IMG/VR virus record: IMGVR_UViG_3300045988_045464 | Coordinates: 1-64,000 of that record | Source of the DNA: a virus | Reading direction: 5' to 3' (one strand) | DNA: 64,000 bases | Part shown: piece after piece, positions 4,644-30,008 of the stretch | Layout of the letters: each line of letters starts with the position of its first letter | How positions within the stretch are numbered: position 1 is the first letter of the stretch | Position numbers and translations under genes: made by a program | The notes under the pieces: generated by a model | The model's input: the letters and a program-made list of their open reading frames with translations, nothing else | Told to the model about the DNA's origin: nothing | Database searches by the model: none

Positions 4644-4644
4644 G

Positions 4645-5588: not shown

Positions 5589-5822
5589 ATACCCTTATAC
5601 TGACATCATGACCTTGATTGTAACTACAATTATCATTCCTATAGTACTTATAGCAGCTATACTTAAGAATATCTTAACCCATTTAAAGTCACAATCCCAT
5701 ATAGTTAGTAACATAGCTATTAATGCAGCCACAAATGCAATGACTACAGTAATCATTAATGCTGTTTCCATATCAATCTCTTACTAAGTCTATCCAATTA
5801 ATTAGGATATGATACAACCACC

Positions 5823-6218: not shown

Positions 6219-6243
6219 AATCTTTAAGTATTAACTAATAATG

Positions 6244-6317
6244 TGGCGAGAAGGTGACTCGAACACCCAACCTTGCGATTATGAGTCGCACGCTCTAGCC
6301 AGTTGAGCTATCTCGCC
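6244..6317 (-). tRNA. tRNA-Met family (anticodon CAT; Met/fMet/Ile2 not distinguished)
   Basis: Acceptor ggcgaga/tctcgcc; D arm tagctcaactggctagagc; anticodon stem tgcga/tcgca with loop ctCATaa; T arm gggtg-TTCGAGT-cacc. Confidence 0.8.
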
Positions 6318-6571
6318 ATTAATAAGAACATAAAGCTCATCGTGTCTACATCGTTACCAATGCAACCTTAATACCTCCCGTTTGCTTCACTGCCGGCTAG
6401 TCTGGCTTTGTCTCCTTATGTTCTTATATATGAATAATCCGCCTGGCAGGGCTGCGAGCTGCCTTACCAATTATTGACGTCAGCTAATCTATGGAATAGC
6501 ACGTCTGCTAAACTGAAATAGCCCTATAGTCATTTCTACACCTGCTCACATTTAAGTGGTGGATTACATGT

Positions 6572-7423
6572 TTATCGGTATTTATCGAACATGCTGTCTG
6601 ATGCTTCTTCTCCCCACATAGACACGATAACAATACCTACTTTGGTAGCCCTAAATACTATTGGGTCTTCTAACCTTCTTTTACGGTCTTCTTCAGCTTT
6701 AGAGAAGATTTCTATGCGAATATTATTCTCCATAGTATCATAAGGCGCTGCAATTAGCCAAGTGTTATGGTCTAAATATGAGGTGCCAAGATGTAGGTAA
6801 TCTTCCTCCTTATAACTTCCACCTATAGACCTCATGTACTGATAACCACGGTCAATACCTTTGAATACAAATGGGAATCTAGAGAAATACTCAACAAGCC
6901 GTTTGGTCATGTCCTTAGACATTCTTGAATCTATTCTCGCAGCTTCAACCCAACTGACGTAGTTAAGATTTAAAGAGTTCAAAGCGTTAGAAGCCTTTGC
7001 TATTTGTGACACATTCTCACTTGGAATGAATCCGCTGAAGGTCGATATTGGACCACAATACAAATTGTACTTCTTCAGGATTGCAAAGAAATCCTCGTAA
7101 GTTACAACCAGTGCATCAGGATACGATTCTTTAATCCAGGATGTTATTTCGTTAACCTTCTTCAGGTCTAATTTCTCTGGACCTAAAGCTGACTTATACT
7201 TCTTAGACTCGAGAATAGTCCTAAGGGTATCTGCATTCTTAGTTCTACCTAAACCTGCTGCTTCCAACTTATCAAGCTCCTCTTTGATTTGCTCGGAATT
7301 GTCAAAGTCTTGATTGCCTTCTACGTACTTCTTATAGTACTCCATAGATGCTGTTACTAAGGCTAAACGTAACGCATCTGCACTCAATTTCTCCATACTA
7401 TGATAAATGTTCTTTAATATCAA
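6572..7423 (-). CDS. hypothetical protein (intact paralogue of 976..1831)
   Basis: 283-aa ORF that aligns colinearly with both frameshifted ORFs near the window start. Confidence 0.55.
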   Translation of the reverse strand: MILKNIYHSMEKLSADALRLALVTASMEYYKKYVEGNQDFDNSEQIKEELDKLEAAGLGRTKNADTLRTILESKKYKSALGPEKLDLKKVNEITSWIKESYPDALVVTYEDFFAILKKYNLYCGPISTFSGFIPSENVSQIAKASNALNSLNLNYVSWVEAARIDSRMSKDMTKRLVEYFSRFPFVFKGIDRGYQYMRSIGGSYKEEDYLHLGTSYLDHNTWLIAAPYDTMENNIRIEIFSKAEEDRKRRLEDPIVFRATKVGIVIVSMWGEEASDSMFDKYR

Positions 7424-7856
7424 TCATGTATTTTATACCTTCAATTATCACACATGCTAGCCCGCCAACGAGCATAATGAAGTATAATGCAACAATTAGT
7501 GGTTCCCAACCAGTCCCATAATCACTTCTATTAAGATTAAAGCTAAGCCTATTAGGCTTGTTATTAATAAAAGCTCTATCATAGGTTGGTTTGTCTACAC
7601 GTAGTTTAAACTGATTGTCTCTACCGTCAGCTATTAGTGTAAGCTTATATACAGTATGCGTCTGTTGATTAACTGTTTCGGTATAACAGTCCTTAGCAAC
7701 TACTGTAGTCCACACAGGTTTGTCAATACAGGTTTCTTTAACTAAGTTAGATTTACATCCTCCTAGTCCTACTAAGCACACCACCAGCCATATTACTATC
7801 AAAGTTGCATGTCTGAAAGTGTTAGCTGACGGTCTCATATCAACAATTGTTGGCAT
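7398..7856 (-). CDS. putative lipoprotein / membrane protein
   Basis: N-terminal hydrophobic segment with a lipobox-like LVGLGGC, and a C-terminal transmembrane helix. Confidence 0.5.
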   Translation of the reverse strand: MPTIVDMRPSANTFRHATLIVIWLVVCLVGLGGCKSNLVKETCIDKPVWTTVVAKDCYTETVNQQTHTVYKLTLIADGRDNQFKLRVDKPTYDRAFINNKPNRLSFNLNRSDYGTGWEPLIVALYFIMLVGGLACVIIEGIKYMIDIKEHLS

Positions 7857-8035
7857 CCTCTGTCAGTAATTTAGTTGCTTTATCCATTCCTAACTCGTAA
7901 GCTTCAGCAATTAATACTGCTGCGCTTGCTATTGAAAGCTTACCACCGTTGTCCTCTGCTACGTTAGCTGCATTTTCAAGCAGCTCACTTAAAGTTTCTA
8001 CCATAATTAAATACATTTAATAGTTAATAATCTAG

Positions 8036-8117
8036 TAGGGTAGGTGAGACTCGAACTCACACGCCCGAAGGCACTTGGGCCTAAACCAAGCCTGTCTGCC
8101 AATTCCAGCACTACCCC
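8036..8117 (-). tRNA. tRNA-Leu (anticodon TAG)
   Basis: Acceptor ggggtag/ctaccct; anticodon stem cttgg/ccaag with loop tTTAGgc; long variable arm tgccttcgggcgt; T arm gtgag-TTCGAGT-ctcac. Confidence 0.75.
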
Positions 8118-8121
8118 ATTG

Positions 8122-8340
8122 TTACTTCATCAAGTTGATAAATTCATCTTCATGTCCCTTATAGTATCGCTGAAGATATGCAATATACACAGCTTCGTCC
8201 TTAACTATTTGAGGGAATTTAGATTCAAATTGTTCTACTTTCTCTTCTCCTACTATACTTACATGAAAGTCTCTAGGTGTAGTATCCACCTTAGTTGCAG
8301 ACATTAATAAGACTAATAGGAATATCAATAAATGTCTCAT
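8122..8340 (-). CDS. small secreted protein (signal peptide)
   Basis: 72-aa ORF starting MRHLLIFLLVLLMSATKV. Confidence 0.4.
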   Translation of the reverse strand: MRHLLIFLLVLLMSATKVDTTPRDFHVSIVGEEKVEQFESKFPQIVKDEAVYIAYLQRYYKGHEDEFINLMK

Positions 8341-8387
8341 TTAGTTGTTAATAAAAGGAGAGCGAGATTGCTCTCGCCCTCCAAGGT

Positions 8388-9845
8388 TTATTTGTTGTCT
8401 TTCTTCTCCGTAGAATAGTCCTTACGGTCGAGTTCCCACTGATACTCACACATCTGAGTGATTGCTTCAAGCTTCTCTGTACCCAGAACGAGTTTGAGAG
8501 CATTTACCAATCTTTCAGCCGGAGTTTCCACAACAGCTTTCTTGGATGCAAGTCCAAGTTGACGTTGATAAGATTCAACGCTAGCTTTGATATGGAACGA
8601 TGTTACATGGGTTTCTTCTGTAAAGATAAGTTTGGATTTGGTTGATTCAACGATTTCAGCCATAAATGCCGGAGCAATTTCAGCTTCTTGAATGTAGTTA
8701 CATACTTCACTCAAATCATCGTCGATTGTATATCCTTCTTCAGCGGTGAAGGTAGAACGGATGAATTTCTCCGCAGTTTCAGCGTCCAGACAGTCCATGG
8801 TAATCACAGAACCAATTCTCTTACCTCTCAAGAAGGTAGGTTCAATCAATTCAATGTGATTAGTAGTGAACAAGGTGATTACGTTCATGTCTTTGGTATC
8901 ACCACCGTCCAGAGTATTCAGGATGTCTTGCATAGCAGCATCTCTGTTACCTCTAGTTACTTGGTCAATATCTTCAACAAATACGACAACACCATGGCCC
9001 GAACGGTCAACAACTTTACACATGCGCAGAGTTTCTGCAAGAAGAGAAGGATTCTTCAAATACACGAATGACCAGCCGTTTGTCACAGCATCTTTAGCCA
9101 GCTTAAATGCCAGCAAGGTCTTACCTGTACCATATTTACCTTCCAGCAAACAACCGTACTTCAATGGAATACCTTTAGCCAGACATTTCTCCGGATACAA
9201 GATTCTTGAACGTAGCGGTTGCAATTCAAATTCAGTCTTCTTAGAAAGAACCATGAATTGTTTCTCGATGCCGGCAAGTGTCATGATAGTAGGTTCAGAC
9301 AGATTGCTGATTTCCAGTGCTTGATTCTTGTAGATAGACTCCGATGCTAACAGTTCTTTAGTTCTGTCAACAATATCATCAATCAATGACTGGTATTTGA
9401 ACTGGCATTGTCCTTTAATAAGGAGCAAATGACGGTCATTGTCATAGTTGATGTTGATTTCAGAATCTTCTCCCAATTCTTCAAGGCTAATTTTACCAAA
9501 CGGAACTTTGGTACGAGAACCGTCTGCCAGAACAACGTCTACGGTATCAATGTTGCTGTTTCCAGAAGGACTGTTATCCTCCTTACTAACGGCAGAACCG
9601 AAGATTTCATTGATTGCTCTGTTCAACTGATATACACCGTCTGGTTTCCAACAAAGCAGCGAGTATTTGAAACTTGCCATTTTCTTGGACTGTTTGATTT
9701 CACCTTCGATGAATCCCAGAGCATCAGCATACTTCACGTTGCTTTGGAGCACTTCAATCATTCTCTGTTTCTGAGTTTCCTCGTACTTGTTAACTCTCTG
9801 CTTAATAGCAGCTGTAGTTCCTTGCGGAATAATGTTCTTTGCCAT
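8388..9845 (-). CDS. AAA-family ATPase
   Basis: Walker A GKYGTGKT and Walker B VVFVEDID. The second region of homology is NVITLFTTNHIELIEPTFLRGKRIGSVI, typical of classical AAA. Confidence 0.75.
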   Translation of the reverse strand: MAKNIIPQGTTAAIKQRVNKYEETQKQRMIEVLQSNVKYADALGFIEGEIKQSKKMASFKYSLLCWKPDGVYQLNRAINEIFGSAVSKEDNSPSGNSNIDTVDVVLADGSRTKVPFGKISLEELGEDSEININYDNDRHLLLIKGQCQFKYQSLIDDIVDRTKELLASESIYKNQALEISNLSEPTIMTLAGIEKQFMVLSKKTEFELQPLRSRILYPEKCLAKGIPLKYGCLLEGKYGTGKTLLAFKLAKDAVTNGWSFVYLKNPSLLAETLRMCKVVDRSGHGVVVFVEDIDQVTRGNRDAAMQDILNTLDGGDTKDMNVITLFTTNHIELIEPTFLRGKRIGSVITMDCLDAETAEKFIRSTFTAEEGYTIDDDLSEVCNYIQEAEIAPAFMAEIVESTKSKLIFTEETHVTSFHIKASVESYQRQLGLASKKAVVETPAERLVNALKLVLGTEKLEAITQMCEYQWELDRKDYSTEKKDNK

Positions 9846-9848
9846 TAC

Positions 9849-10121
9849 TTAATTAGGTTTATTAATCTTATTTACTTCTTTAATGATTGCTTCACAATTC
9901 TCTCTTGTTGTAGTTAAACAACCAAGTTGAATAATAGAACCGTCTTGAGTGATAGTCAGGTTCTTCTCTTCGATTGTTTCCCTACATAGACCTCCTCTGA
10001 TAATTCTTTTAATGAGTGGAAAGGGTAATATAGTATTCTTACAGAATATCATATTCTTGCCTTCCACATAAATGACATCGTAGCCGTCAATGCTACCTAC
10101 TACCTTACTCATTCGATTCAA
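9849..10121 (-). CDS. hypothetical protein
   Basis: 90-aa ORF immediately downstream of the ATPase. Confidence 0.45.
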   Translation of the reverse strand: MNRMSKVVGSIDGYDVIYVEGKNMIFCKNTILPFPLIKRIIRGGLCRETIEEKNLTITQDGSIIQLGCLTTTRENCEAIIKEVNKINKPN

Positions 10122-10133
10122 CTATTAACTGTG

Positions 10134-10207
10134 TGGGCCCGGCCGGACTTGAACCGACAACCTCCTGATTATGAGTCAGTTTCTCTAACCGATTGAGATA
10201 CGGGCCC
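10134..10207 (-). tRNA. tRNA-Met family (anticodon CAT), second copy
   Basis: Acceptor gggcccg/cgggccc; anticodon loop ctCATaa; T arm gtcgg-TTCAAGT-ccggc. Confidence 0.75.
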
Positions 10208-10303
10208 CGAACGCCCATGTTTACTCACAATTAACAGTTCTCAAAGAGTAGTGTTGTTAGTGACTTCATGATAAATTCTATTTTAAACTGAAATAATTAG
10301 TAG

Positions 10304-10375
10304 TTGGGCTACCAGGATTCGAACCTGGGCTACAAGAGCCAAAACCTTGTGTGACTACCACTACACCATAGCCCA
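10304..10375 (-). tRNA. tRNA-Gln (anticodon TTG)
   Basis: Acceptor begins with a U1:A72 pair (tgggcta/tagccca), as in bacterial tRNA-Gln. Anticodon stem caagg/tcttg with loop ttTTGgc. T arm ccagg-TTCGAAT-cctgg. Confidence 0.7.
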
Positions 10376-10396
10376 GTAAAAGGAGTCCGAAGACTC

Positions 10397-20314: not shown

Positions 20315-20573
20315 TCAGCCTCTTCTTGAGTTCCTTCTTAGCCTTTCTGGGCAACTTAGGATACTCTGCATATAAATCCTGTTCAGCGGCTCTGCTTGCT
20401 TCACTTAATTGCTCAAGTAAAGCATTAACATCTTCGTTAGTTTTGTAATCCTTAAGAAGGACTCTAACTAATGTGGGACGTTTCACCATTTCTCGCATTC
20501 CAGATTCGTACACTCTACAAATTTGGTTTCTACTTAACGTAGACACTCTCCTTAATTTCACTTTAAACTTCAT
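20250..20573 (-). CDS. hypothetical protein
   Basis: 107-aa ORF. Confidence 0.4.
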   Translation of the reverse strand: MKFKVKLRRVSTLSRNQICRVYESGMREMVKRPTLVRVLLKDYKTNEDVNALLEQLSEASRAAEQDLYAEYPKLPRKAKKELKKRLNAVNNAYCIGITLLLAESDGL

Positions 20574-20592
20574 AGTACATTCAAATTAGTTG

Positions 20593-20678
20593 AGGAAGCA
20601 GAGGGATTCGAACCCCCGGACCCCGAAGGGCCTCTGGTTTTCAAGACCAGTGCAATCGACCAACTCTGCCATACTTCC
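20593..20678 (-). tRNA. tRNA-Ser (anticodon TGA)
   Basis: Acceptor ggaagta/tgcttcc; anticodon stem ctggt/accag with loop ctTGAaa; long variable arm aggcccttcggggtcc; T arm ggggg-TTCGAAT-ccctc. Confidence 0.8.
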
Positions 20679-20690
20679 ATTAATAATAAG

Positions 20691-20765
20691 CACGCCCTGC
20701 ACGACTCGAACATGCAACACACCCAGTTTTGGAGACAGGGGCTCTACCGATTGAGCTAAGGACGC
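20691..20765 (-). tRNA. tRNA-Trp (anticodon CCA)
   Basis: Acceptor gcgtcct/agggcgt with two G·U pairs; anticodon stem cctgt/actgg with one U·U mismatch and loop ctCCAaa; T arm gcatg-TTCGAGT-cgtgc. Confidence 0.55.
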
Positions 20766-20879
20766 ATCAATTTTAGATTGTGGAATCTTTAAAGATGTAA
20801 TACAATACTACTAGCACTATAGCTCCCACAATGTAAGCACCAAAACTATGCATAATCTTATAATTTAATGTTAATAATG

Positions 20880-20951
20880 CGGCAAGTGCAGGACTCGAAC
20901 CTGCGACCAATTGGTTAACAGCCAACTGCTCTACCACTGAGCTAACTTGCC
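20880..20951 (-). tRNA. tRNA-Asn (anticodon GTT)
   Basis: Acceptor ggcaagt/acttgcc; anticodon stem gttgg/ccaat with loop ctGTTaa; T arm gcagg-TTCGAGT-cctgc. Confidence 0.8.
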
Positions 20952-21205
20952 ATAATGTTTAATTGACCTATCCCGATTGCATCGGAGTTAATCCCTATGG
21001 TAAGGAACTACTCCTGTTGGTGTCCAAGCATAGCTATTTGCAGCTATTCTAAAATACCAACGAACTGCTTTCTTAATTAACTTAAATAGTCTCATAATAC
21101 ATCAGTTTTAGTCAATAAATAAGTAATCTAAATAAACCACTCTATCTTCACAGACTGAGTGGTCAAACTCGTTCTTTGACATCATGTACAATCTTAGTAC
21201 ATATG

Positions 21206-21279
21206 TGACTCCGCTGCGATTCGAACGCAGGACCCCGATATTAAAAGTATCGTGCTCTAACCAGCTGAGCTACGGAATC
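21206..21279 (-). tRNA. tRNA-Lys (anticodon TTT)
   Basis: Acceptor gattccg/cggagtc; anticodon stem cgata/tatcg with loop ctTTTaa; T arm ctgcg-TTCGAAT-cgcag. Confidence 0.8.
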
Positions 21280-21362
21280 ATCCGCAGAAGGCGCGTTATC
21301 AAAAACATGTAAACTGTACAATGATTAGTGCTGTACGCCTTCTTATGTTTCACTAAATCGAG

Positions 21363-21434
21363 AGTGGGCTGACGGAATCGAACCGTCCTAACTGGTTTTG
21401 CGGACCAGCCCCTAAACCTCTCGGGCAAGCCCAC
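21363..21434 (-). tRNA. tRNA-Cys (anticodon GCA), tentative
   Basis: Acceptor gtgggct/agcccac; anticodon stem ctggt/accag with loop ccGCAaa (C33 is unusual); T arm gacgg-TTCGATT-ccgtc. Confidence 0.5.
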
Positions 21435-21659
21435 GTATCAATATGACTTATGGGCTTAACTATGAAACAGGTTAATCAAATCATAAATTAAAAGTTGTTG
21501 GGTTGATTGTTGAGTTGATTTGATGATTGTTTAGTGAAACTATATATTATTGTGTTAATTATGGTTCTTATTAAAACTACTCTATTCTCACGAACTGAGT
21601 AGTTGTCCATATTTATATTTATGGGATTATCAGCATCCTCTCTTGGATGCCACGGGGAG

Positions 21660-21734
21660 TCGAGATGGTGTGATTCGAACACACGAGTAATCCTGCTCCC
21701 AAAGCAGGCCGGGTGACCACTCCCGAACATCTCG
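21660..21734 (-). tRNA. tRNA-Pro (anticodon TGG)
   Basis: C1:G72 start (cgagatg/catctcg), as in bacterial tRNA-Pro; anticodon stem cctgc/gcagg with loop ttTGGga; T arm gtgtg-TTCGAAT-cacac. Confidence 0.7.
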
Positions 21735-21836
21735 AACTACAGAAGTCTCTTAGTTTAATTAAAATCATAAAATATGAAACACTTTCTTTCGTGCTGTAAG
21801 ACTTCTTATTCAAAGCTATTGAAAATTGTTGTATTG

Positions 21837-21910
21837 TGGGTATGCCTGGAATTGAACCAGGGACCTCATCCTTATCAGAGATGTGCTCTAACCAACTGAG
21901 CTACACACCC
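21837..21910 (-). tRNA. tRNA-Ile (anticodon GAT)
   Basis: Acceptor gggtgtg/cataccc; anticodon stem catct/ggatg with loop ctGATaa; T arm cctgg-TTCAATT-ccagg. Confidence 0.8.
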
Positions 21911-22011
21911 ATCATCAGAAGACAATAGATTCATTTACTTATGCCAACATACAGGAAATTGCTGTGTGTCTTCTTAACATTCTGAAAATGCAAATGTACA
22001 ATGATTGTAGT

Positions 22012-22088
22012 TGCGGAGATGGGAGTCGAACCCAATATAACTAGCTTATGAGACTAGTATGATTTATATATCCGTTTCATTCCTCCGC
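22012..22088 (-). tRNA. tRNA with CAT anticodon (third copy) and an unusually large AT-rich D loop
   Basis: Acceptor gcggagg/tctccgc; anticodon stem ctagt/gctag with loop ctCATaa; T arm ttggg-TTCGACT-cccat; 3-bp D stem with a 14-nt D loop. Confidence 0.5.
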
Positions 22089-22091
22089 AAG

Positions 22092-22163
22092 TGCCCCATG
22101 TTGGACTCGAACCAACGCCATACAAGTTTAGAATTTGCTCTTCTACCACTGAAGTAATGGGGC
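22092..22163 (-). tRNA. candidate suppressor tRNA (anticodon CTA, reads UAG), tentative
   Basis: Acceptor gccccat/atggggc pairs 7/7; D arm cttc-agtggta-gaag; anticodon stem gcaaa/cttgt (G·U plus a 31-39 A·C mismatch) with loop ttCTAaa; T arm gttgg-TTCGAGT-ccaac. Confidence 0.45.
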
Positions 22164-22200
22164 GACAGAGGGTTTTACGAGATTACCCACAACTCATCAA

Positions 22201-22518
22201 CTATTCGATAATTTGATTCCACTGTTCAAGTGTAAGTTCCTTGACTACTATGCCATTTAGTTCAAATGGAGTATATTGGTTTCCATTCTCTTCTACAAGG
22301 ATTAACCATTCGTAGCCACGTTGCTTGCTATGAGTTCTAATAATCTCCTTAATGGTTTCGATGCCAAAAGGAGTTAGAATCTTCTGCCCTTCTCTGTAAA
22401 GATACCTCTTGTTGAGGTCTTTTAAATCCTCTAATGTGGTTAAATGAGGATTAGGGTTCTTAGTGATAACTACATGGTCATCTCCTACACTAACATAATA
22501 ATCTCGATTGTATATCAT
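22201..22518 (-). CDS. hypothetical protein
   Basis: 105-aa ORF. Confidence 0.45.
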   Translation of the reverse strand: MIYNRDYYVSVGDDHVVITKNPNPHLTTLEDLKDLNKRYLYREGQKILTPFGIETIKEIIRTHSKQRGYEWLILVEENGNQYTPFELNGIVVKELTLEQWNQIIE

Positions 22519-22817
22519 TCTCTTACTAATTTAAGTTTCTTGAACATGCGACCGTCATCTTGTAATGCGATTGCTGTTAATTGATTGCCAAGGTCTGGTT
22601 CATAGAATGAAGAATAGTCCTTATTAACTAAGTCCAGTCTTACTTTCCATTTGTCCAAGTCAGCATATAAGTAGATTAAGTAGTTATTATTCCAATCCTG
22701 CTTAGGATGTTCTAATAACCACTGTGCTACTGCATGACCTCCTTGTACACAACCATAAACTGCATCAAGCTTCTGGTCTATCAGCACATACAATCTCTTC
22801 ATCAGAATATGTATCAA
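22515..22817 (-). CDS. putative PTH2-like peptidyl-tRNA hydrolase
   Basis: N-terminal KRLYVLIDQKLD...GCVQGGHAVAQW resembles the PTH2 signature (VVRTDL...GKIAAQCAHA). Confidence 0.4.
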   Translation of the reverse strand: MIHILMKRLYVLIDQKLDAVYGCVQGGHAVAQWLLEHPKQDWNNNYLIYLYADLDKWKVRLDLVNKDYSSFYEPDLGNQLTAIALQDDGRMFKKLKLVRE

Positions 22818-23103
22818 TCAGTGAATCAACTCTTTCTCGGAAATACTTCTCTCCACTATACATCTTAGAATAACCACACCAACCTTGAGTTTCAAGTGAT
22901 TTCCATTCTTTGATAACTTTAGCTAGATACTCATTCATAGCTTCTCCGATTAGTTTATGCTTTAATATGTAATAAGCTACATACATTGCATGTAATCTTC
23001 CTCTGTTGTAATAAACTGATGAGCAGTCATTAATATTCTTAGCTGCTTTCTGTGCTTTTACTAAATTCGCGATTTCTTGTTTAAATTGTTTAATTGTTGC
23101 CAT
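22765..23103 (-). CDS. hypothetical protein
   Basis: 112-aa ORF. Confidence 0.45.
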   Translation of the reverse strand: MATIKQFKQEIANLVKAQKAAKNINDCSSVYYNRGRLHAMYVAYYILKHKLIGEAMNEYLAKVIKEWKSLETQGWCGYSKMYSGEKYFRERVDSLIDTYSDEEIVCADRPEA

Positions 23104-23192
23104 GATAGTTAATTGTTAATAAGTTAATAAATAAATTGCCTTAATTAATAATCAACTATCTTATGGTGGCTTGTAAGTAATCTACCGCATAA

Positions 23193-23489
23193 TCATTTCC
23201 CTTTAATTTGTTTACACATGTTAATAAACTCATCATCCGATTCACATATAATCGGATTCGTTTCCTTGAGATACATCTCCAGATAGGCTTCTTTAGACAA
23301 ATCGTCCACGTCATCCGGATACACACCATGTACATCATATGACATATGAGAACCCCAGCAACTAAGCCAATCAGCATCCTCAAATGTAGTACATATACAC
23401 ACACTTAACCCAGCATCCTCTAGTTTCTTACGAAGTTCTGGAGTATTCTTCTTAATAAGACAGTGTTCACTCATGGATTTAATACACAT
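23193..23489 (-). CDS. hypothetical protein
   Basis: 98-aa ORF. Confidence 0.4.
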   Translation of the reverse strand: MCIKSMSEHCLIKKNTPELRKKLEDAGLSVCICTTFEDADWLSCWGSHMSYDVHGVYPDDVDDLSKEAYLEMYLKETNPIICESDDEFINMCKQIKGK

Positions 23490-23809
23490 AAACCACCTTT
23501 TTCGGAATCTCTAAGCACATACTTAATACCTGGAATACCAGGACCTGATACCTTATAAATGGTTAGTTCGTTAATAAATTCATACTGCACTCTGTTGATT
23601 TTATAATCTCCATTAGTAGCAGCAGACTCATTAATTGATGCTTTACTTGTGGTTGCAAATAATGCCAAGAAGGTAAATACTCCACATAATCCACCAATAA
23701 CACCTGCCTTAAATGATGTCTCTTTCATAATCTCATCTATTATTAATAATGAGCGGGATAACAGAATTGAACTGTCATCTTCAGCTTGGAAGGCTGTTAT
23801 AATAACCAT
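23471..23809 (-). CDS. hypothetical membrane protein
   Basis: 112-aa ORF with a central transmembrane helix (GVIGGLCGVFTFLALFA). Confidence 0.4.
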   Translation of the reverse strand: MVIITAFQAEDDSSILLSRSLLIIDEIMKETSFKAGVIGGLCGVFTFLALFATTSKASINESAATNGDYKINRVQYEFINELTIYKVSGPGIPGIKYVLRDSEKGGLCVLNP

Positions 23810-23910
23810 TATACGAATCCCGCAGTTTACTTCTACTATTCTCTCGAACCATAGAAGGGTTTGTCGAGTTTGACCTCAACAGATATTGTATTTAATTATC
23901 GCAGTGTGAG

Positions 23911-23994
23911 TGGGCGCGGGAAGACTCGAACTTCCAGAGTCGTTAGACACGAAATTTACAGTTTCGCCCGCTACCAATTACGGTTTACGCACCC
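23911..23994 (-). tRNA. tRNA-Tyr (anticodon GTA)
   Basis: Acceptor gggtgcg/cgcgccc; anticodon stem cgaaa/tttcg with loop ctGTAaa; long variable arm; T arm ggaag-TTCGAGT-cttcc. Confidence 0.8.
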
Positions 23995-23998
23995 GTTG

Positions 23999-24400
23999 TC
24001 AATGCAATGTTACACGATAAGGTAGATACCTCTCTCCGAGAGCTACAGAACTTACAGCACTAATCTCTGACTTTGGAATTGAATAACAATCCCCACTATC
24101 AGTTAAAGCAAACAGTAAATCTGACGAGTTCTCACTAAAGTCCTTACATTTCCCAGTACCACTACGATTACCGCCTATGGTTCTAAGGCTAACTATGTAG
24201 TTACCACTGGGTGAAATGGACTTAGTAGTTTTAACTTGTACCTTAAACAATCTAGTTCCGTTATCAACTACTAGGTCGTAGTCTTGAGAATCTGTGACAG
24301 GGACTGAAACTGTCCATCCCAGTTTAGCATAGTACGCCATTGCGTAGCACATGCCAATGTCACCTTGCTTCTTGGAATTAATTGCGTTATCAAATAGCAT
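23999..24400 (-). CDS. small PD-(D/E)XK-type nuclease-like protein
   Basis: D...DYDLVVDNG...KVQVKT fits the PD-(D/E)XK catalytic arrangement. It lies 4 nt from tRNA-Tyr. Confidence 0.45.
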   Translation of the reverse strand: MLFDNAINSKKQGDIGMCYAMAYYAKLGWTVSVPVTDSQDYDLVVDNGTRLFKVQVKTTKSISPSGNYIVSLRTIGGNRSGTGKCKDFSENSSDLLFALTDSGDCYSIPKSEISAVSSVALGERYLPYRVTLH

Positions 24401-24659
24401 AAAACATTGTCCTCACACAATCCATATTAACTGTGAATTGTGAGTGCAAAGGTAATGAATCTTTCCCACATATAAAAGTTAATATGTATTAAATACGATA
24501 GAAGTTTGCTCGGTATTAAACTAAGCTCACATATTCTCTCGAACCGATGAGCTTAGTAGTTATTCAACAATTGCAGATACTTTAACTCGTAATAATGACT
24601 ATGAGTCGAGATAGAAATGACACTGCATATGTTGAAAGAATCATATTAATAAAATGGTG

Positions 24660-24733
24660 TAGAGATAACCAGATTCGAACTGATGTTCTTCTAAAGATTG
24701 ACTTTAGCTGTTCTACCACTGAACTATATCTCT
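24660..24733 (-). tRNA. tRNA of undetermined identity (unusual anticodon loop gtCAAtc)
   Basis: Acceptor agagata/tatctct; canonical D arm gttc-agtggta-gaac; T arm atcag-TTCGAAT-ctggt. The anticodon arm is ctaaa/tttag with a non-canonical loop (G32, U37). Confidence 0.5.
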
Positions 24734-24896
24734 ATCCAGTCCCTATGGAATCATCCAATAAATTCCCACCTAGTATCACTAGATATGCACAAAGATTACT
24801 ATACCAAATATGCGCTCTTCTCCATGCATAATGAAATCTATCTTCTATCCAATCAGAACATTAATTCAACTATTAAATAAACGGTGCGCGAAATAC

Positions 24897-26591
24897 TTAG
24901 GCCTTCACAGGCTTCTTCTGCACGCTTGCATTCTTCTTGACAACATCCTTCTCTAGAATCATCATATTAAGCAACTCTTGATTCATAGCATGCTTAAAAA
25001 TGTCTCTGGTGGTTTTAGGCACCTGGAACCTCTTCTCTCCAGTAATAAATGAGGATGTTGAATTATTAAGTCCATTTACTAAGAAGCAATTTGACACTCC
25101 TGGAACCAAAGCTACATTAGGTCTTCCTTTATATGCTAAAGGAACTCTCCAAATAATAACTTTGAACGCCCTTACAAATTCCTTACTGAAATTTGCTTTA
25201 AGCAATCTCTGTTTAAATTCCACGAATGCTTGGTTGTTCAACTTGGTAAAATATGTATGGTTAGTAATTACCACACAACCTCTAGGGAACTCTCCTTCAT
25301 CTACACCATAATCTTCTTTCATTTTACACAGCATTTCTGCTATATTAATAATAGAAGGATTCTGGCATAATGCTTCTTCTTTGTCAGATTTCCATTTCTC
25401 AATGACATTCTGACCTTTGAACTTACGTAGAACCATGTTATCTTCTAACACGGCATAGGAGTTTTTGAATATTGTAGGAAGTAGTTCAGAGTGATATAAA
25501 GCATATACTTTACCCAAACTGTAAGCAGATGTTTCGCTATTCTCTATCTCACCATTAGCAGAATGGCTTATATCTCTTACTACCAACAACGGAGCTACTC
25601 TATTGCGTTTAGCATTATCAACGAATACGTTGAAACTTGCATTAATAGAAGTTTCCATAAATTCTGGAATCTCTTCGGCAATTTTATCCAATCCATATGG
25701 TTTGAATAGAGTATGTAGAAATCCGCTATTAGAGGGCTTCTTACGGTTCTTCAACCAGTTCTGATACTTCTCTTTAAGACCTTGATGTTTGAGGAATTTA
25801 GAGCCTACTAGCTGTGCCAGCGCCTTTCCAGTAACAGTGTCAAAATCAATTTCCAAGAATTTCTTTTGACTGATTAACTGTTGCCATTGGGCTGCTTTCC
25901 CGCTATTCTTTATCTTCCTATATTTACGATAGGTTGAATAGTCTCCTTCATCCTTAGGTTTACCATAAAGGCCTTCCGCCAAGAATTTGGCTACTGTGTT
26001 ACGTGCTTTTGCCTCATCTGTCTTACATGCAACACTGGAACGAACACGGGGAAGATACTTCTTTACTAAATCACATGTCTGACCGTTGGCAAGACCTGCG
26101 AATATGACTTTCTTGAAGAAGTCCCAATCCAATCTGTGCTTAAAGCCATGGAGTTGAACATCTAAAGCCATCATAGTAATGAAATCTTTCCAGCATCCAG
26201 CTGCTGCAAAATAAGCAATGTTGGCATGGAATGTGGGTTTGTGATAGATTGCCAACCACAACATTCTCATTATACCTTCATTCTTCAAACCTTCTCCTTG
26301 CTGTGTATCAAGTTGTATAACTCCTTCCGGGGTAGTTATTCTACATTTACGAGTTATCATTCTCGTATATGCAGTAAACTTAGTACATAGTAATGGATTA
26401 GCTTTCCATAAAGGATACATATCTTTAGCCACTTGCACGTAGGTACGTGGCTGAAGACATTTCTTAAGATTAACAAACTGGTCTATGAATAACTGATTAT
26501 TATCCACAAACTTAGGTTTATTCTCATCCCGCCTTTGACGTGCGGCATTAGGGTAAGGCCTCCTTGGCCTTTGTGCTCCTTTCATTTCCAT
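24897..26591 (-). CDS. large hypothetical protein (564 aa)
   Basis: Long ORF with a basic N-terminus; no confident motif. Confidence 0.6.
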   Translation of the reverse strand: MEMKGAQRPRRPYPNAARQRRDENKPKFVDNNQLFIDQFVNLKKCLQPRTYVQVAKDMYPLWKANPLLCTKFTAYTRMITRKCRITTPEGVIQLDTQQGEGLKNEGIMRMLWLAIYHKPTFHANIAYFAAAGCWKDFITMMALDVQLHGFKHRLDWDFFKKVIFAGLANGQTCDLVKKYLPRVRSSVACKTDEAKARNTVAKFLAEGLYGKPKDEGDYSTYRKYRKIKNSGKAAQWQQLISQKKFLEIDFDTVTGKALAQLVGSKFLKHQGLKEKYQNWLKNRKKPSNSGFLHTLFKPYGLDKIAEEIPEFMETSINASFNVFVDNAKRNRVAPLLVVRDISHSANGEIENSETSAYSLGKVYALYHSELLPTIFKNSYAVLEDNMVLRKFKGQNVIEKWKSDKEEALCQNPSIINIAEMLCKMKEDYGVDEGEFPRGCVVITNHTYFTKLNNQAFVEFKQRLLKANFSKEFVRAFKVIIWRVPLAYKGRPNVALVPGVSNCFLVNGLNNSTSSFITGEKRFQVPKTTRDIFKHAMNQELLNMMILEKDVVKKNASVQKKPVKA

Positions 26592-26971
26592 CTCTTTGTT
26601 TAAATTTATTGTTATGAGAGTCTTTCTTTATTCTAAACAATAAACAAGCGGCATTACGGCAATCGGACATGCGTTAATCCGCTCGCCACTTACAGACCGT
26701 AATGCACACTTGACCAGGCAGGAAAGAGGTTTGCTTGGTGACCTATCTGCATGCTGATTATATAATGCAGACCGTGTAGATTCTCTCTTACACAATATCT
26801 ATAGTAGATTTGCACTACTGTTTTCTGATGCTTAATCAGGCGAACTCCTACTGTTCGAATAGATACAGGTTTCAACTCTTTGATATAGCCTTTAAGTCAT
26901 AGACACACTCCGGAGTATGTCTACTGGTTCTTCAGACCAAGTTTTGCTACCACCATTCGTCAATAGTGGAT

Positions 26972-27667
26972 TTACGGTATCAGATAGTCCACACGAAGGT
27001 CTACCGTCTCTTCGTTTGCTTCTAACACCACAGTCGTCGAAAGAATGTCAGGATTGTCAGCCGTAGTTATCATACTCACAATATCATGTGGGGATTCCAA
27101 GTATAAATAACCTCTACCGTCCCAAGCTGGAACATATCCGCCTCGTAGAATGTTTCGAGACGGAATAGACTTATAATAATAGTGTGCTGGCCGGTAGTGA
27201 GCGAATGATACATTAATAGCTGATTGGTGTGTGCCTATGGTAAAACCACCTAAGACTGTTGCCAGTCTCATCACCTTACTAACATATTTTGAATCGCCTA
27301 CTACATCTAGTCTTATGTTCAAGCCTGGATAGTAGAATTTAGCAACTCTCCTGCTTATATCCTTCAACGTTTGAAGAGATTGAAATTCAGCAACATCAAC
27401 ATAGTCTTTCTCCGATTCAGAACTACCGAAGATACAATTAATTGGTATTGGCTGATTGGCTTCAATACATTCTTCCAAAATAGTGATTGCTTCGGACGGA
27501 ATAGCTTCATTACCAAGTCTGATTCTCTTAGTCCCATATAAGATATGAGCTATAATCTGACTAAGTGGCAATGATAATTTCTCCTTAGCAAAGTTGCTTT
27601 CCAAATCATATAGATATTGGCAAATATGTGCACTGAATGGCGTGTTCCCTTGTACTGTAAACTTCAT
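26972..27667 (-). CDS. hypothetical protein
   Basis: 231-aa ORF. Confidence 0.5.
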   Translation of the reverse strand: MKFTVQGNTPFSAHICQYLYDLESNFAKEKLSLPLSQIIAHILYGTKRIRLGNEAIPSEAITILEECIEANQPIPINCIFGSSESEKDYVDVAEFQSLQTLKDISRRVAKFYYPGLNIRLDVVGDSKYVSKVMRLATVLGGFTIGTHQSAINVSFAHYRPAHYYYKSIPSRNILRGGYVPAWDGRGYLYLESPHDIVSMITTADNPDILSTTVVLEANEETVDLRVDYLIP

Positions 27668-28161
27668 ACTATCTGTTCAACTGTTATTAATTTAGTGATT
27701 CTGTAACCTCTTGATTTCAGGAATCTGATTGCTTCCATTTCAGCTTGTGTAATAGGAATCAGATGTTTGTCTTCTTCCGCTTCTGTAACAGCTTCCATTT
27801 CAGCTTGTGGCTTAGGTTTGGGAGGTGCTACATAAGTGCCAGCTTTAATAGCCATTCTCTTAGCATATGCATCTCTCTGTATCTTAGCCATTTCTTTCCT
27901 ACTGATAGTTATCAATTCAATGACTCTAGTCTTATACAAAGGGCCATGTTCTTTCCACATAAATCCTTTAGTATAGATAGCACCGTCAGGTTCAATCACT
28001 CCCTGCTTACGCAAAACAGCCATGAAGTTCTCTGGCCTTGGGAAGCCATTCTTCTTCAAATCCTTGACTACATCTGTAATCTTAAAAGGCCCAGGATTCA
28101 TTGCCTTTACCGTGTTAAAAATCCGAACGATGTCATCGTCGGATATTGACCTCTTTCCCAT
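27664..28161 (-). CDS. hypothetical protein with internal PxQAEMEA(V/I) repeat
   Basis: 165-aa ORF; stop and start overlap with the downstream gene (operon-like). Confidence 0.5.
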   Translation of the reverse strand: MGKRSISDDDIVRIFNTVKAMNPGPFKITDVVKDLKKNGFPRPENFMAVLRKQGVIEPDGAIYTKGFMWKEHGPLYKTRVIELITISRKEMAKIQRDAYAKRMAIKAGTYVAPPKPKPQAEMEAVTEAEEDKHLIPITQAEMEAIRFLKSRGYRITKLITVEQIV

Positions 28162-28187
28162 AATTTCAATAACTTTTAGTGAAACAA

Positions 28188-28469
28188 TTACTCTTTATAT
28201 ATTCTAATTCGAGATTTACGTAGATGTACACGCATTCGTTTAACCTCGGACAGAATCCAATTACGTCTGCATTGATGTAACCATGCAATTACATCTTCGT
28301 CAAATAATAATTCTTGACCACAGTAGTATGTGCCACTGTAGTAAGTATCAAGCTTTGGTCTTAATATGTCATGAGGACTATCAGTAACTATGTATTGATA
28401 ATCCTCACCTCTTATTAATTTCAGCTTCTTTGACTCCTTGCGAAGTTTCTTTAATAACCTTGCTTTCAT
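28188..28469 (-). CDS. hypothetical basic protein
   Basis: 93-aa ORF. Confidence 0.4.
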   Translation of the reverse strand: MKARLLKKLRKESKKLKLIRGEDYQYIVTDSPHDILRPKLDTYYSGTYYCGQELLFDEDVIAWLHQCRRNWILSEVKRMRVHLRKSRIRIYKE

Positions 28470-28819
28470 TTTAATAGTTCCAATTTAGCTACGTCCTTAT
28501 CATGCCATATCCCAATCCAGAAGTTGTCTACAAAGTTCCTATGATTCATGATGGTATAATTAAGCCTTAAGATATCACTAGATATAAGATAGTAATTCTT
28601 CCTATCAGTAGCCTCCAATGTTTCTTTGAGCACTGCGTGCTTGCCAATAATTTGAATATTCCTTGTAATAGCGAATGGTAATGAAATCGCTGCCCCAACT
28701 GTTGCTATTGAGAATACAACCTCAACTGCCACTGCAACTCCTCTTAGGTCTTCAGACCCTACTCGCGAAAGACATACACAAATAAGTAAAACAATCACTG
28801 CAATAATAAATAATCCCAT
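28466..28819 (-). CDS. hypothetical membrane protein
   Basis: 117-aa ORF with two transmembrane helices. Confidence 0.4.
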   Translation of the reverse strand: MGLFIIAVIVLLICVCLSRVGSEDLRGVAVAVEVVFSIATVGAAISLPFAITRNIQIIGKHAVLKETLEATDRKNYYLISSDILRLNYTIMNHRNFVDNFWIGIWHDKDVAKLELLK

Positions 28820-28847
28820 AAAATTGATATTTAAACGTTAATAATAG

Positions 28848-28905
28848 TGGACCATCGCGGACTCGAACCGCGGTCTTCACAACTCTAAATAATAAGATTA
28901 CGTGT
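28848..28905 (-). other. orphan tRNA 3' half (T arm plus acceptor 3' strand) with no adjacent 5' half
   Basis: cgcgg-TTCGAGT-ccgcg followed by atggtcc and a discriminator. No complementary 5' acceptor strand lies within 100 nt. Confidence 0.4.
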
Positions 28906-29501
28906 GTCTCTATTTTATTACATCAGCTGTTGAGTTCAGCATGTAGGTAGTTTTACTAAGAAGCCGAGTGTTAATTCACCAATTACGTCTCCCTCGTAGG
29001 GCTACGACTTAGTTGTTCACAAACTACCAAACTGGGCTTGACCGAACGGTCGCTCCACCACTCCATTTACGTTGGAGAACGTTTCTATTTGTAACCCATA
29101 GATAGGTAGTGGAGATTTCAGCTTTACTAACCTTTGGCTTTCAAGTTAAGTGGGCTGCCCTATATGCTTCTTCCCACACCTCTTCTGTTTCTAGGTCTCT
29201 CCAATTAACCCGACTTAATCAATGACGTCCACTAATTAAGCCAGCAGCTTAGGCTGCCATTCTGTAAGTAGTGTTTCCACTTAAATTGCCGTATCATTAT
29301 TAAAGAGTTGGTACGAACTCTACACGTCTTACTACCCAGTCATCATGAATCAATTCCATGTATGGCCCATAAGTGGCATGATTATACTCTCATGCCAGGA
29401 GTCTCATTTAAAATAATGAATATAGCAGCCAGTATCCTCCTGTGCCACATTAAGTGGCGTACCCATTATGGACTTGGCAGCTTACGAGTTATTTGTTCCA
29501 T

Positions 29502-29855
29502 TTAAAATGGTAAGTTTCCTTCATGTTTCATCCAACTATAAACTACAATTTCATAATCTGGGAAATCGTTGGCAAGTTTAATACAACTGTCAAACGATAA
29601 CTCTGTTATGCATATAAGAGGGTAATCATTGTCAAGCCATTCTCTAATTACATCCTTATCAGGAATATGCTCATCCAATGACCATTTAAGCTCACGTTCA
29701 AGTCTTTCACGTATCGTATTTAATTTAATATGGTCATGTGTTCCATATATAACATTTAATATGTAATACAATAAATGGCTATTGAACTTATCAACATCGC
29801 TAATAAGAATATGCCTCTTGGCATTCCTTAAAGAATTAACTGCATTCTGATTCAT
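29502..29855 (-). CDS. hypothetical protein
   Basis: 117-aa ORF. Confidence 0.45.
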   Translation of the reverse strand: MNQNAVNSLRNAKRHILISDVDKFNSHLLYYILNVIYGTHDHIKLNTIRERLERELKWSLDEHIPDKDVIREWLDNDYPLICITELSFDSCIKLANDFPDYEIVVYSWMKHEGNLPF

Positions 29856-29938
29856 ACACTTATTAATTAAAAGCCCAAGTGTGTTTCACAACATGGCTGG
29901 GCAAACTCAAAATACAAAACAAAACTTTAAAATGATTG

Positions 29939-30008
29939 GAGAGGATGGGAGATTCGAACTCCCTCCGCCAGTTCGCAACTAACCTTCTACCATTAAACTA
30001 ATCCTCTC
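29939..30008 (-). tRNA. tRNA-like, possibly tRNA-Arg (anticodon GCG) with a degenerate D arm
   Basis: Acceptor agaggat/atcctct; T arm gggag-TTCGAAT-ctccc; anticodon stem gttag/ctggc (two G·U pairs) with loop ttGCGaa; the D arm is poorly paired. Confidence 0.4.

What the first reader, a model, noticed from the sequence alone, without database searches (positions are those of the whole stretch)
22092..22163. Candidate amber-suppressor tRNA (anticodon CUA)
A well-formed tRNA (perfect 7-bp acceptor, canonical D and T arms) whose best anticodon-arm fold presents CTA at positions 34-36. The cost is one G·U and one A·C pair in the stem. A UAG-reading tRNA would imply either late-stage stop-codon recoding (TAG reassignment is known in some gut phages) or readthrough control. 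TAG is used as a stop in this window (for example at the PurA-like gene), so suppression would matter. The alternative is that the arm folds differently and the anticodon is something else.
Basis: inference. Interest (0 to 1): 0.6.

Follow-up and report, generated by a model that had tools for sequence, protein, structure and literature searches.

The report
Amber-suppressor tRNA in a standard-code crAss-like phage
The window carries a genuine, evolutionarily conserved tRNA that should read the UAG stop codon, but the gut phage that owns it does not use UAG as a sense codon anywhere we could see; this situation has already been published for this phage lineage and its purpose is still unknown.

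Summary
Window 22092-22163 (minus strand) is a well-formed tRNA with anticodon CUA, called by both ARAGORN and Rfam (62.7 bits). Orthologues in three more distant relatives keep the loop UUCUAAA unchanged. Nine of 22 pairs change on both sides, so the gene is under selection.

The implied recoding is not there. The window belongs to a roughly 184.5-kb Zeta crAss-like gut phage (family A polymerase, GC 36.75%, 28-29 tRNAs). About 180 kb were surveyed. Standard-code ORFs tile the genome and run up to 2967 aa. TerL and portal have no in-frame TAG, and 18 of about 194 called genes end in TAG.

A related fragment, MT835539.1, served as positive control and is plainly TAG-recoded: 46 TAGs in its portal ORF, aligning mostly with Gln. 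No release factor or aaRS was found. The one in-frame TAG junction is not conserved.

A 2025 paper reports that this type of lineage carries tRNA-Sup-CTA without suppression, so the finding is already known. The role is inferred only: most likely UAG readthrough on host and early-phage messages, or a retained remnant or pre-adaptation.

By-product: the A31·C39 "defect" is conserved in the orthologues and recurs in about 42% of sampled phage CUA tRNAs, against 4% of sense tRNAs.

The parts
22092..22163 (-). tRNA gene with anticodon CUA (amber-suppressor type). Class I, 5-nt variable loop, discriminator A73, no encoded CCA.
   Evidence: ARAGORN; Rfam RF00005 62.7 bits; covariation in orthologues
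22129..22131 (-). Anticodon C34 U35 A36 (TAG on the plus strand), inside the loop UUCUAAA. The loop is identical in all four orthologues.
   Evidence: Sequence; alignment A1
22122..22138 (-). Anticodon arm. G27·U43 (22138/22122) is invariant. A31·C39 (22134/22126) is never a standard pair in any orthologue (A·C or C·C). Pairs 28-42 and 30-40 covary.
   Evidence: recurrence of the unpaired 31·39 in other phage CUA tRNAs
5502..30007 (-). tRNA array that holds the suppressor. It has 25 other minus-strand tRNAs, interspersed with small early or middle genes. Every amino acid except Val is represented. Local order is Tyr-Gly-Sup-(CAU-like)-Ile-Pro-Cys-Lys.
   Evidence: synteny with L044, L045 and L046
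54367..57640 (+). Large terminase, in two pieces around a LAGLIDADG insertion. It has no in-frame TAG, which is evidence against recoding of late genes.
   Evidence: PHROG 6681; uninterrupted 758-aa form in L001; the recoded relative has 13 TAGs in the two TerL-matching ORFs
57871..60072 (+). Portal protein, 733 aa, with no in-frame TAG. The recoded relative MT835539.1 has 46 TAG codons in its portal ORF.
10397..11464 (-). PurA-like gene ending in TAG. It is one of 8 TAG-terminated genes of at least 60 aa in the window. The others are 3450-4643, 4808-5299, 7398-7856, 13739-14632, 19106-19408, 22201-22518 and 47413-47907. These are the phage messages a working suppressor would extend, by 1-37 codons (159 for 47413-47907).

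Best explanation
Shown:
- 22092-22163 (-) is a functional-looking, selectively maintained tRNA gene with anticodon CUA.
- It sits in the early/middle tRNA array of a roughly 184.5-kb Zeta crAss-like Bacteroides-type gut phage that is written entirely in the standard code.

Inferred mechanism:
- The tRNA is transcribed with the array and its ends are trimmed.
- CCA is added, because none is encoded. The phage carries a CCA-adding-enzyme-like gene.
- A host synthetase that reads U35 charges it, with glutamine by phage precedent or lysine by E. coli identity rules.
- It then competes with release factor 1 at UAG.

The phage has no in-frame UAG, and none of the 47 called genes in its late block ends in UAG. 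Any readthrough therefore falls on UAG-terminated host messages and on the roughly 18 early or middle phage genes that end in TAG, which would gain short tails. The benefit would be host takeover or interference with defence or with competing phages. It is not decoding of the phage's own genes.
For: Gene and selection:
- The tRNA is called by two methods.
- Orthologues found by synteny in relatives whose neighbouring 564-aa protein is 83%, 67% and 44% identical keep UUCUAAA+C39 unchanged.
- 9 of 22 pairs, including the tertiary G19-C56, change on both sides and none changes on one side only. 95.5% of cells are paired against 30-51% when the partner is slid.
- All 18 IMG/VR contigs matched by a pattern fixed to the window tRNA sequence with the anticodon left free carry CTA.

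No recoding:
- Standard-code ORFs of at least 100 codons cover 94% of MT835470, with ORFs up to 2971 codons.
- TAG-split frames number 11, fewer than the TGA control at 26.
- Only two gaps of 200 nt or more occur in the late block.
- The 18.7 kb to the left of the window is also standard code.
- Positive control: MT835539.1 goes from 35% to 82% ORF cover when TAG is read as sense, and its TAGs align mostly with Gln.

Other support:
- The late plus-strand block has 0 of 47 TAG stops, against 14 of 116 elsewhere.
- A CCA-adding-enzyme-like gene, PNKP, a ligase and a HAD_SAK_2+YqeY protein are present.
- The genome fits the published 'clade 8' description: CTA suppressor, no suppression, polA, GC 36.7-36.9%, 28-29 tRNAs, 178-184 kb.
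Against: - Nothing here shows expression, charging or decoding.
- The lack of TAG stops in late genes is not significant once their strong TAA preference is allowed for (TAG versus TGA, p=0.16-0.32).
- TAG stops come and go between relatives in early genes, and extension lengths are not conserved. This argues that suppression is weak, late or harmless.
- TAG genes are not backed up by a nearer second stop than control genes (median 15.5 codons against 7 and 11.5).
- The amino acid is unknown. Similarity to sense tRNAs is uninformative, at most about 0.74.
- The host-directed role is borrowed from a published hypothesis, not from data.
- About 4.7 kb of the genome was not seen.
Confidence: 0.5

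Rival explanations
1. Late-stage TAG-to-glutamine recoding. The phage would write late genes with in-frame TAG and use this tRNA to read them.
For: Relatives in the same group do this. MT835539.1 (portal 49% identical) is heavily TAG-recoded. The literature reports it for many crAss-like phages.
Against: About 180 of roughly 184.5 kb is densely coding in the standard code. TerL, portal and all giant late ORFs are intact. TAG ends 18 of about 194 called genes.
Confidence: 0.03
2. Programmed readthrough of particular phage genes. Partial suppression of a TAG stop would make a C-terminally extended or fused isoform, for example 47413-47907 read into 46933-47400.
For: The two ORFs are in frame across TAG plus 12 nt. 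One relative (L049) has CAG at that codon and ACG in place of the downstream ATG, so there the junction is translated. L051 and MT835470 keep TAG in frame.
Against: L050 has TAA and a different frame at the same junction. Most homologues of the downstream ORF start at their own ATG. One in-frame case among the TAG-terminated genes checked is within chance. Extensions of other TAG genes vary in length and one runs into a tRNA gene.
Confidence: 0.07
3. Remnant or pre-adaptation. The suppressor is left over from, or a first step towards, a code change in a group that switches codes often, and has little present effect.
For: Zeta phages switch between TAG, TGA and the standard code over short distances, and suppressors without recoding have been read as incipient code change. 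TAG is the rarest stop here at 9%. Early-gene TAG stops are tolerated. The tRNA is absent in L047, L067 and L068.
Against: An unused gene should drift. Instead the loop is invariant while the stems change only by compensated pairs, across relatives as far apart as 44% protein identity. The 2025 paper makes the same argument from diverged genomes.
Confidence: 0.2
4. A role other than decoding. Examples are a decoy or substrate for a host tRNA-targeting defence nuclease, or a partner of the phage's own RNA-repair enzymes.
For: The phage invests in tRNA repair and maturation: PNKP, a ligase, HAD_SAK_2+YqeY and a CCA-adding-enzyme-like protein. It also carries two odd tRNA-like genes.
Against: All features needed for ribosomal decoding are kept, including U33, A37, the T-loop and the G19-C56 tertiary pair. 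No nuclease is known to target CUA loops. This is pure inference.
Confidence: 0.08
5. It is not a UAG reader in vivo. A modification of C34, such as lysidine, or the effectively 9-nt loop would change what it decodes.
For: 31·39 is never paired, so the loop is effectively 9 nt. C4-G69 and C5-G68 resemble TilS determinants of E. coli tRNA-Ile2; this point rests on my own knowledge.
Against: L046 has U4-A69. In recoded phages CUA tRNAs go together with TAG codons.
Confidence: 0.03

Closest known systems
[quoted passage not shown]
   Same: Genomes of 178-184 kb, GC 36.7-36.9%, polA, 28-29 tRNAs, a Bacteroides host prediction, a CTA suppressor tRNA and no suppression. Here the figures are a 184,530-bp contig, GC 36.75%, polA, 28-29 tRNAs, a CTA tRNA and no in-frame TAG.
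   Different: No difference was found. Sequence identity to the named genomes could not be tested because they are not in the searchable collections. In this genome TAG stops are not followed 'shortly' by another stop more often than other stops are.
Suppressor tRNAs of TAG-to-Gln recoded phages (crAss-like, Lak and others; Yutin 2021 PMC7886860; Borges 2021 bioRxiv 10.1101/2021.08.26.457843; Peters 2022 PMC9523058)
   Same: A phage-encoded CUA tRNA in a tRNA block, in a phage of a standard-code host, from the same phage group. The relative MT835539.1 is recoded, with TAG aligning mostly with Gln.
   Different: Here there are no in-frame TAG codons, and TAG still terminates 18 of about 194 called genes.
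Classical amber suppressors made by one anticodon change in a sense tRNA (E. coli supE and supF; crAss alpha-group Gln-to-Sup example in Yutin 2021)
   Same: Anticodon CUA in an otherwise normal elongator tRNA.
   Different: No sense tRNA in this phage or its relatives is more than about 0.74 identical. The gene is old and conserved, not a recent point mutant.
tRNA-Pyl (ARAGORN's label)
   Same: Anticodon CUA only.
   Different: This tRNA has normal G18G19, a 5-nt variable loop, two bases between the acceptor and D stems, and a 5-position anticodon stem. tRNA-Pyl has a 6-bp anticodon stem, a 3-nt variable loop and a small D-loop.

Membership tests
Elongator tRNA (Rfam RF00005) | Cloverleaf that scores above the curated threshold | tested here: met
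   62.7 bits against a gathering score of 29, over the full model 1-71; ARAGORN call
Elongator tRNA (Rfam RF00005) | Stems and tertiary pairs maintained by compensatory change in relatives | tested here: met
   9 of 22 pairs change on both sides and 0 on one side only. G19-C56 becomes A19-U56 in L045.
Amber suppressor tRNA | Anticodon CUA at positions 34-36, flanked by U33 and a purine at 37, and kept in orthologues | tested here: met
   The loop UUCUAAA is identical in the window, L044, L045 and L046. All 18 pattern-matched, near-identical tRNA copies carry CTA.
Amber suppressor tRNA | Aminoacylated and able to insert an amino acid at UAG | not testable with these tools
   Needs a reporter assay, tRNA sequencing or proteomics
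TAG-recoded (code 15) phage | Low coding density in the standard code that is rescued by reading TAG as sense | tested here: not met
   MT835470 gives 93.8% against 94.9%. The positive control MT835539.1 gives 35% against 82%.
TAG-recoded (code 15) phage | In-frame TAG in conserved late genes such as TerL and portal | tested here: not met
   None in this phage. The relative has 46 in its portal ORF and 13 in the two TerL-matching ORFs.
TAG-recoded (code 15) phage | Accessory release factor or aaRS (present in some members only) | tested here: not met
   No GGQ motif in 161 kb. Pfam scans of the early-region ORFs tested found none. Not every ORF was scanned.
Zeta crAss-like phages, standard-code clade with Sup-CTA | crAss-like portal and TerL, genome of 145-192 kb, introns or homing endonucleases, a tRNA block | tested here: met
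   Portal hits crAss-like portals. PHROG assigns TerL and portal. The contig is 184,530 bp. A LAGLIDADG gene splits TerL. The window has about 26 tRNAs.
Zeta crAss-like phages, standard-code clade with Sup-CTA | polA, GC about 36.8%, 28-29 tRNAs, CTA suppressor, no suppression | tested here: met
   against Table 1 and the text of PMC12386605
Zeta crAss-like phages, standard-code clade with Sup-CTA | Placement in the TerL or proteome tree next to the named genomes | not tested
   The named genomes are not in the collections available here
tRNA-Pyl | 6-bp anticodon stem, 3-nt variable loop, small D-loop without G18G19, one base between the acceptor and D stems | tested here: not met
   Sequence: 5-nt variable loop, AGUGGUA D-loop, and U8 A9 between the stems
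GlnRS substrate (E. coli identity set as listed in PMC1483225) | U1-A72, G2-C71, G3-C70, G10, pyrimidine 34, U35, G36, A37, U38, G73 | tested here: not met
   Only C34, U35 and A37 are present. The tRNA has G1-C72, C2-G71, C3-G70, C10, A36, A38 and A73. The phage's own tRNA-Gln does have U1-A72, G2, G3 and G10. The rules come from E. coli, not Bacteroides.
LysRS substrate (E. coli identity set as listed in PMC1483225) | U34 (modified), U35, U36, A73; a flexible 31-39 pair is favoured | tested here: inconclusive
   U35 and A73 are present and 31·39 is unpaired, but positions 34 and 36 are C and A

The most novel reading that the evidence does not exclude
Standard-code Zeta crAss-like phages may keep the amber suppressor as a weapon aimed at the host. 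It would force readthrough of host UAG stops, while the phage's own late genes carry no UAG. The conserved unpaired 31·39 position could be a tuning device for such suppressors, affecting which synthetase charges them (Lys against Gln) or how well they compete with release factor 1. That position is unpaired in 42% of sampled phage CUA tRNAs against 4% of sense tRNAs.
Probability: 0.2. Interest if true: 0.65.

Novelty: already known. Interest (0 to 1): 0.3.

Why it matters
The gene shows that a phage-encoded amber suppressor does not by itself mean an altered genetic code. Annotation pipelines that switch to code 15 on seeing such a tRNA would mis-translate this abundant gut phage.

The open question is why diverged standard-code phages conserve a UAG-reading tRNA. 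This phage is common enough to look for UAG-spanning peptides in existing faecal metaproteomes: one of its proteins is indexed in 3527 blocks of the assembly collection.

The enrichment of an unpaired 31·39 position among phage CUA tRNAs, if it holds in an unbiased census, would be a new structural clue to how natural suppressors are built.

Tried and rejected
- **Nearest sense tRNA.** I compared the suppressor with the 25 other tRNAs of the window and with 203 unique tRNAs from related loci, masking the anticodon. The best identity was 0.68-0.74, to Val, Thr, Arg, Tyr or Ile with no consistency, so there is no isotype call.
- **BLAST against annotated phages.** Only two weak tRNA-Lys hits in Streptomyces phages.
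- **Looking for sense-anticodon relatives.** Degenerate tRNA patterns with a free anticodon, run on IMG/VR, returned only the CTA forms of this lineage.
- **The in-frame TAG junction at 47413/47400.** I followed it with a homologue search and three contig look-ups and rejected it as a conserved readthrough site.
- **TAG-stop depletion in late genes as evidence of self-protection.** Rejected as a stand-alone argument because of the TAA bias.
- **'TAG followed closely by a second stop'.** Not supported in this genome.
- **Motif and Pfam search for a release factor or aaRS.** Nothing found.
- **PDB sequence search with the neighbouring DUF7788 protein.** Nothing found.
- **'tRNA-Stop(tta)' in MT835539.1.** This ARAGORN call is a poor structure and was not used.
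- **Identity clustering.** It was replaced by acceptor-stem families.

Full report
**1. The observation**

ARAGORN reports 27 tRNA genes in the window. One lies at 22091-22163 on the minus strand with anticodon CTA. Rfam's tRNA model matches 22092-22163 (-) over its whole length at 62.7 bits, more than twice the gathering score. The RNA has a perfect 7-bp acceptor stem, standard D and T arms, the loop U32-U33-C34-U35-A36-A37-A38, a 5-nt variable loop and discriminator A73. It has no encoded CCA.

A thermodynamic fold of the single sequence recovers only the acceptor and T arms. The cloverleaf therefore rests on the covariance model and on comparative data. ARAGORN's 'Pyl' label is only its name for CUA. 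The tRNA has none of the structural peculiarities of tRNA-Pyl.

**2. What genome this is**

- The window has 37.1% GC. It holds an early/middle minus-strand region full of tRNAs, and from about 50 kb a plus-strand block with the large terminase and portal.
- The portal is distantly related to crAss-like portals. It is 100% identical to one in GenBank MT835470.1, an unannotated 117-kb contig from human faeces.
- That record overlaps window 44.6-64 kb and continues 97 kb beyond the right end.
- A 184,530-bp ENA contig is 99.99% identical to window 1-11,831 and extends to the left. An IMG/VR contig extends 10 kb further.
- Together about 180 of roughly 184.5 kb could be read.
- The genome has a family A DNA polymerase and an anaerobic ribonucleotide reductase. 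GC is 36.75%. There are 28-29 tRNAs, and a LAGLIDADG gene splits the terminase.

This matches the published description of one lineage of Zeta crAss-like phages (178-184 kb, polA, GC 36.7-36.9%, 28-29 tRNAs, Bacteroides). For that lineage the authors state that all members but one carry a CTA suppressor tRNA and that 'there is no suppression' (PMC12386605). Yutin et al. had already noted that suppressor tRNAs and recoding do not coincide perfectly in the Zeta group (PMC7886860).

**3. Is TAG recoded here? No.**

- In MT835470, stop-free frames of at least 100 codons in the standard code cover 93.8% of the sequence and reach 2971 codons. Reading TAG as sense adds 1% and lengthens none of the long ORFs.
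- In the 161-kb composite, frames split by TAG into two parts of at least 50 codons number 11. Nearly all are on the non-coding strand. The TGA control gives 26.
- Only 12 gaps of 200 nt or more lack a standard ORF or tRNA, and only two of them are in the late block.
- The extra 18.7 kb on the left behaves the same way.
- As a positive control I ran the same script on MT835539.1, a 55-kb fragment whose portal is 49% identical. ORF cover rises from 35% to 82% when TAG is read as sense. Its portal ORF has 46 TAG codons. Of the 96 aligned TAG positions in conserved late genes, 25 face Gln in our phage, then Glu 16 and Lys 10.

The method therefore sees recoding where it exists, and close kin of this phage do use TAG for Gln. 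This phage does not.

**4. TAG as a stop, and readthrough**

- Among 163 called genes of the composite, 109 end in TAA, 40 in TGA and 14 in TAG. The left extension adds 17, 10 and 4.
- All TAG-terminated genes are on the early/middle strand. The late plus-strand block has 0 of 47 (Fisher p about 0.01). Late genes use TAA for 41 of 47, and against TGA the deficit is not significant (p=0.16-0.32).
- The distance from a TAG stop to the next in-frame TAA or TGA has a median of 15.5 codons. That is no shorter than after TAA (7) or TGA (11.5).
- Between relatives, early-gene stops flip between TAG and TAA in both directions, and extension lengths are not kept.
- One gene pair, 47413-47907 and 46933-47400, is in frame across TAG plus 12 nt. 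One relative has CAG there and has lost the downstream ATG. Another has TAA and a shifted frame. Most homologues of the downstream gene start at their own ATG. I treat this junction as chance.
- No GGQ release-factor motif occurs in the 161-kb composite.
- Pfam scans of early-region proteins found RNase H, AAA ATPases, an SPFH protein, PurA-like, NAD-salvage enzymes, PNKP, a ligase, a CCA-adding-enzyme-like protein and a HAD_SAK_2+YqeY protein. They found no aaRS or release factor.

**5. Is the tRNA under selection? Yes.**

I used the neighbouring 564-aa protein as an anchor and fetched relatives at 83%, 67%, 44%, 44%, 45% and 40% identity.

- The first three (L044, L045, L046) have a CTA tRNA in the same place, after Tyr and Gly. 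The other three lack it in the region fetched.
- Across the four orthologues the seven loop bases and C39 never change.
- 9 of 22 pairs change on both sides and none changes on one side only. The tertiary G19-C56 pair becomes A19-U56.
- 95.5% of cells are paired, against 30-51% when partners are slid.
- G27·U43 is invariant, and 31·39 is unpaired in all four (A·C or C·C).

A gene without function would not show this pattern.

**6. Which amino acid?**

- No sense tRNA in the phage or its relatives is close enough to name an ancestor.
- Against the E. coli GlnRS identity set as listed by Fukunaga et al. (PMC1483225), the tRNA lacks U1-A72, G2-C71, G3-C70, G10, G36, U38 and G73. The phage's own tRNA-Gln has U1-A72, G2-C71, G3-C70 and G10.
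- It has the U35 and A73 that LysRS uses. That paper shows that, for CUA tRNAs, a weaker 31-39 pair shifts charging from Gln towards Lys.
- By precedent, every documented phage TAG reassignment is to Gln.

The identity is therefore open: Gln by analogy, Lys by E. coli rules.

**7. A by-product**

I collected phage CUA tRNAs from IMG/VR with a pattern that does not constrain the anticodon stem.

- 38 of 91 unique sequences (42%) have no standard 31-39 pair. Across all 103 CUA tRNAs the unpaired combinations are mostly C·A, A·C or C·C.
- Among sense tRNAs from the same loci the figure is 25 of 622 (4%).
- The three inner pairs are about 99% paired in both sets.
- Grouped by acceptor stem the figures are 36% against 3%.

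The sample is capped, requires A37-A38 and a 5-nt variable loop, and is not phylogenetically corrected.

**8. Reading**

Shown:
- a real, conserved CUA tRNA;
- a standard-code genome;
- recoded relatives.

Inferred:
- the tRNA is matured, with CCA added by the phage or host enzyme;
- it is charged by a host synthetase through U35 and competes with RF1;
- with no in-frame UAG in the phage, its substrates can only be UAG stops of host messages and of about 18 early phage genes.

The published suggestion that such suppressors disturb host or defence proteins is the most economical role. A retained remnant or pre-adaptation in a group that changes code often is the main rival. The case is already described in the literature, so novelty is low. 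The biological purpose remains an open question.

Noticed in passing
window 22017-22084 (-): Directly downstream of the suppressor, with a 7-nt spacer, lies a tRNA-like gene that ARAGORN misses. It has a good acceptor stem (GCGGAGG/UCUCCGC), a T arm and the anticodon loop CUCAUAA (CAU, so Met or Ile2 type). Its D arm is a 3-bp stem with a loop of about 14 nt. Rfam tRNA score is 20.8 bits, below threshold. The fold z-score is -2.5.
   Followed up: partly
window 24659-24733 (-), 24897-26591 (-), 26862-26969 (-): A RAGATH-34 RNA (119.8 bits) is followed by a 564-aa DUF7788/DUF2828 protein and then an odd 75-nt tRNA-like gene. ARAGORN calls it Leu-CAA, but it has no long variable arm, G32 and a pyrimidine at 37. 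The 'anticodon' at the same syntenic spot differs in every relative: CAA, UGA, or 2- or 4-base calls. This could be an RNA-protein module rather than a decoding tRNA. The protein has no PDB sequence relative.
   Followed up: partly
IMG/VR loci L052-L182, compared with window 22122-22138: Phage tRNAs with anticodon CUA often lack a standard 31-39 pair: 38 of 91 unique sequences, against 25 of 622 sense tRNAs from the same loci. The inner stem pairs are intact in both sets. G27·U43 or a 27·43 mismatch is also common in the CUA set.
   Followed up: partly
window 54367-57640 (+): The large terminase is split into a 196-aa and a 586-aa ORF by an insertion carrying a 281-aa LAGLIDADG gene (55038-55883). 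Near-identical genomes (L001, L003, L005, MT835470) have an uninterrupted 758-aa gene. It is probably a mobile intron.
   Followed up: partly
L183+L184 (GenBank MT835539.1): This 55-kb relative has 29% GC and a portal 49% identical to the window's. It is heavily TAG-recoded: 35% ORF cover in the standard code, 82% with TAG as sense, 46 TAGs in the portal ORF, and TAG aligning mostly with Gln. The record is unannotated.
   Followed up: yes
window 10397-11464 (-): An adenylosuccinate-synthetase-family gene (Pfam E=8.5e-35). The best PHROG is annotated as a PurZ-type enzyme of 2-aminoadenine genomes. Whether it is PurA or PurZ, and whether partner genes exist, was not tested.
   Followed up: no
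window 5823-6218 (-): A 131-aa protein with a weak match to the C-terminal domain of ribosomal protein L7/L12 (25.1 bits against a cut-off of 25.9). It sits in the tRNA region.
   Followed up: no
window 46933-46960 (-): The 155-aa ORF 46933-47400 stops about 25 codons earlier than its 180-aa homologues, a cluster of 4523 sequences. The missing tail VTTEIPINQAY...NVII is encoded in another frame just downstream. This is a frameshift in this copy or a sequencing error. The region is highly mosaic between relatives.
   Followed up: partly
composite of window + MT835470, about 130.3-150.1 kb (outside the window): A set of RNA repair and maturation genes: HAD_SAK_2 fused to a YqeY (GatB-like tRNA-binding) domain, PNKP, an ATP-dependent ligase and a CCA-adding-enzyme-like protein. 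NAD synthase and NAPRTase are also present.
   Followed up: no
window 15067-15143 (+): ARAGORN's plus-strand 'tRNA-Arg(tcg)' overlaps the minus-strand tRNA-Ser(gct) at 15082-15170. It has no Rfam match on that strand. It is probably an antisense artefact.
   Followed up: no
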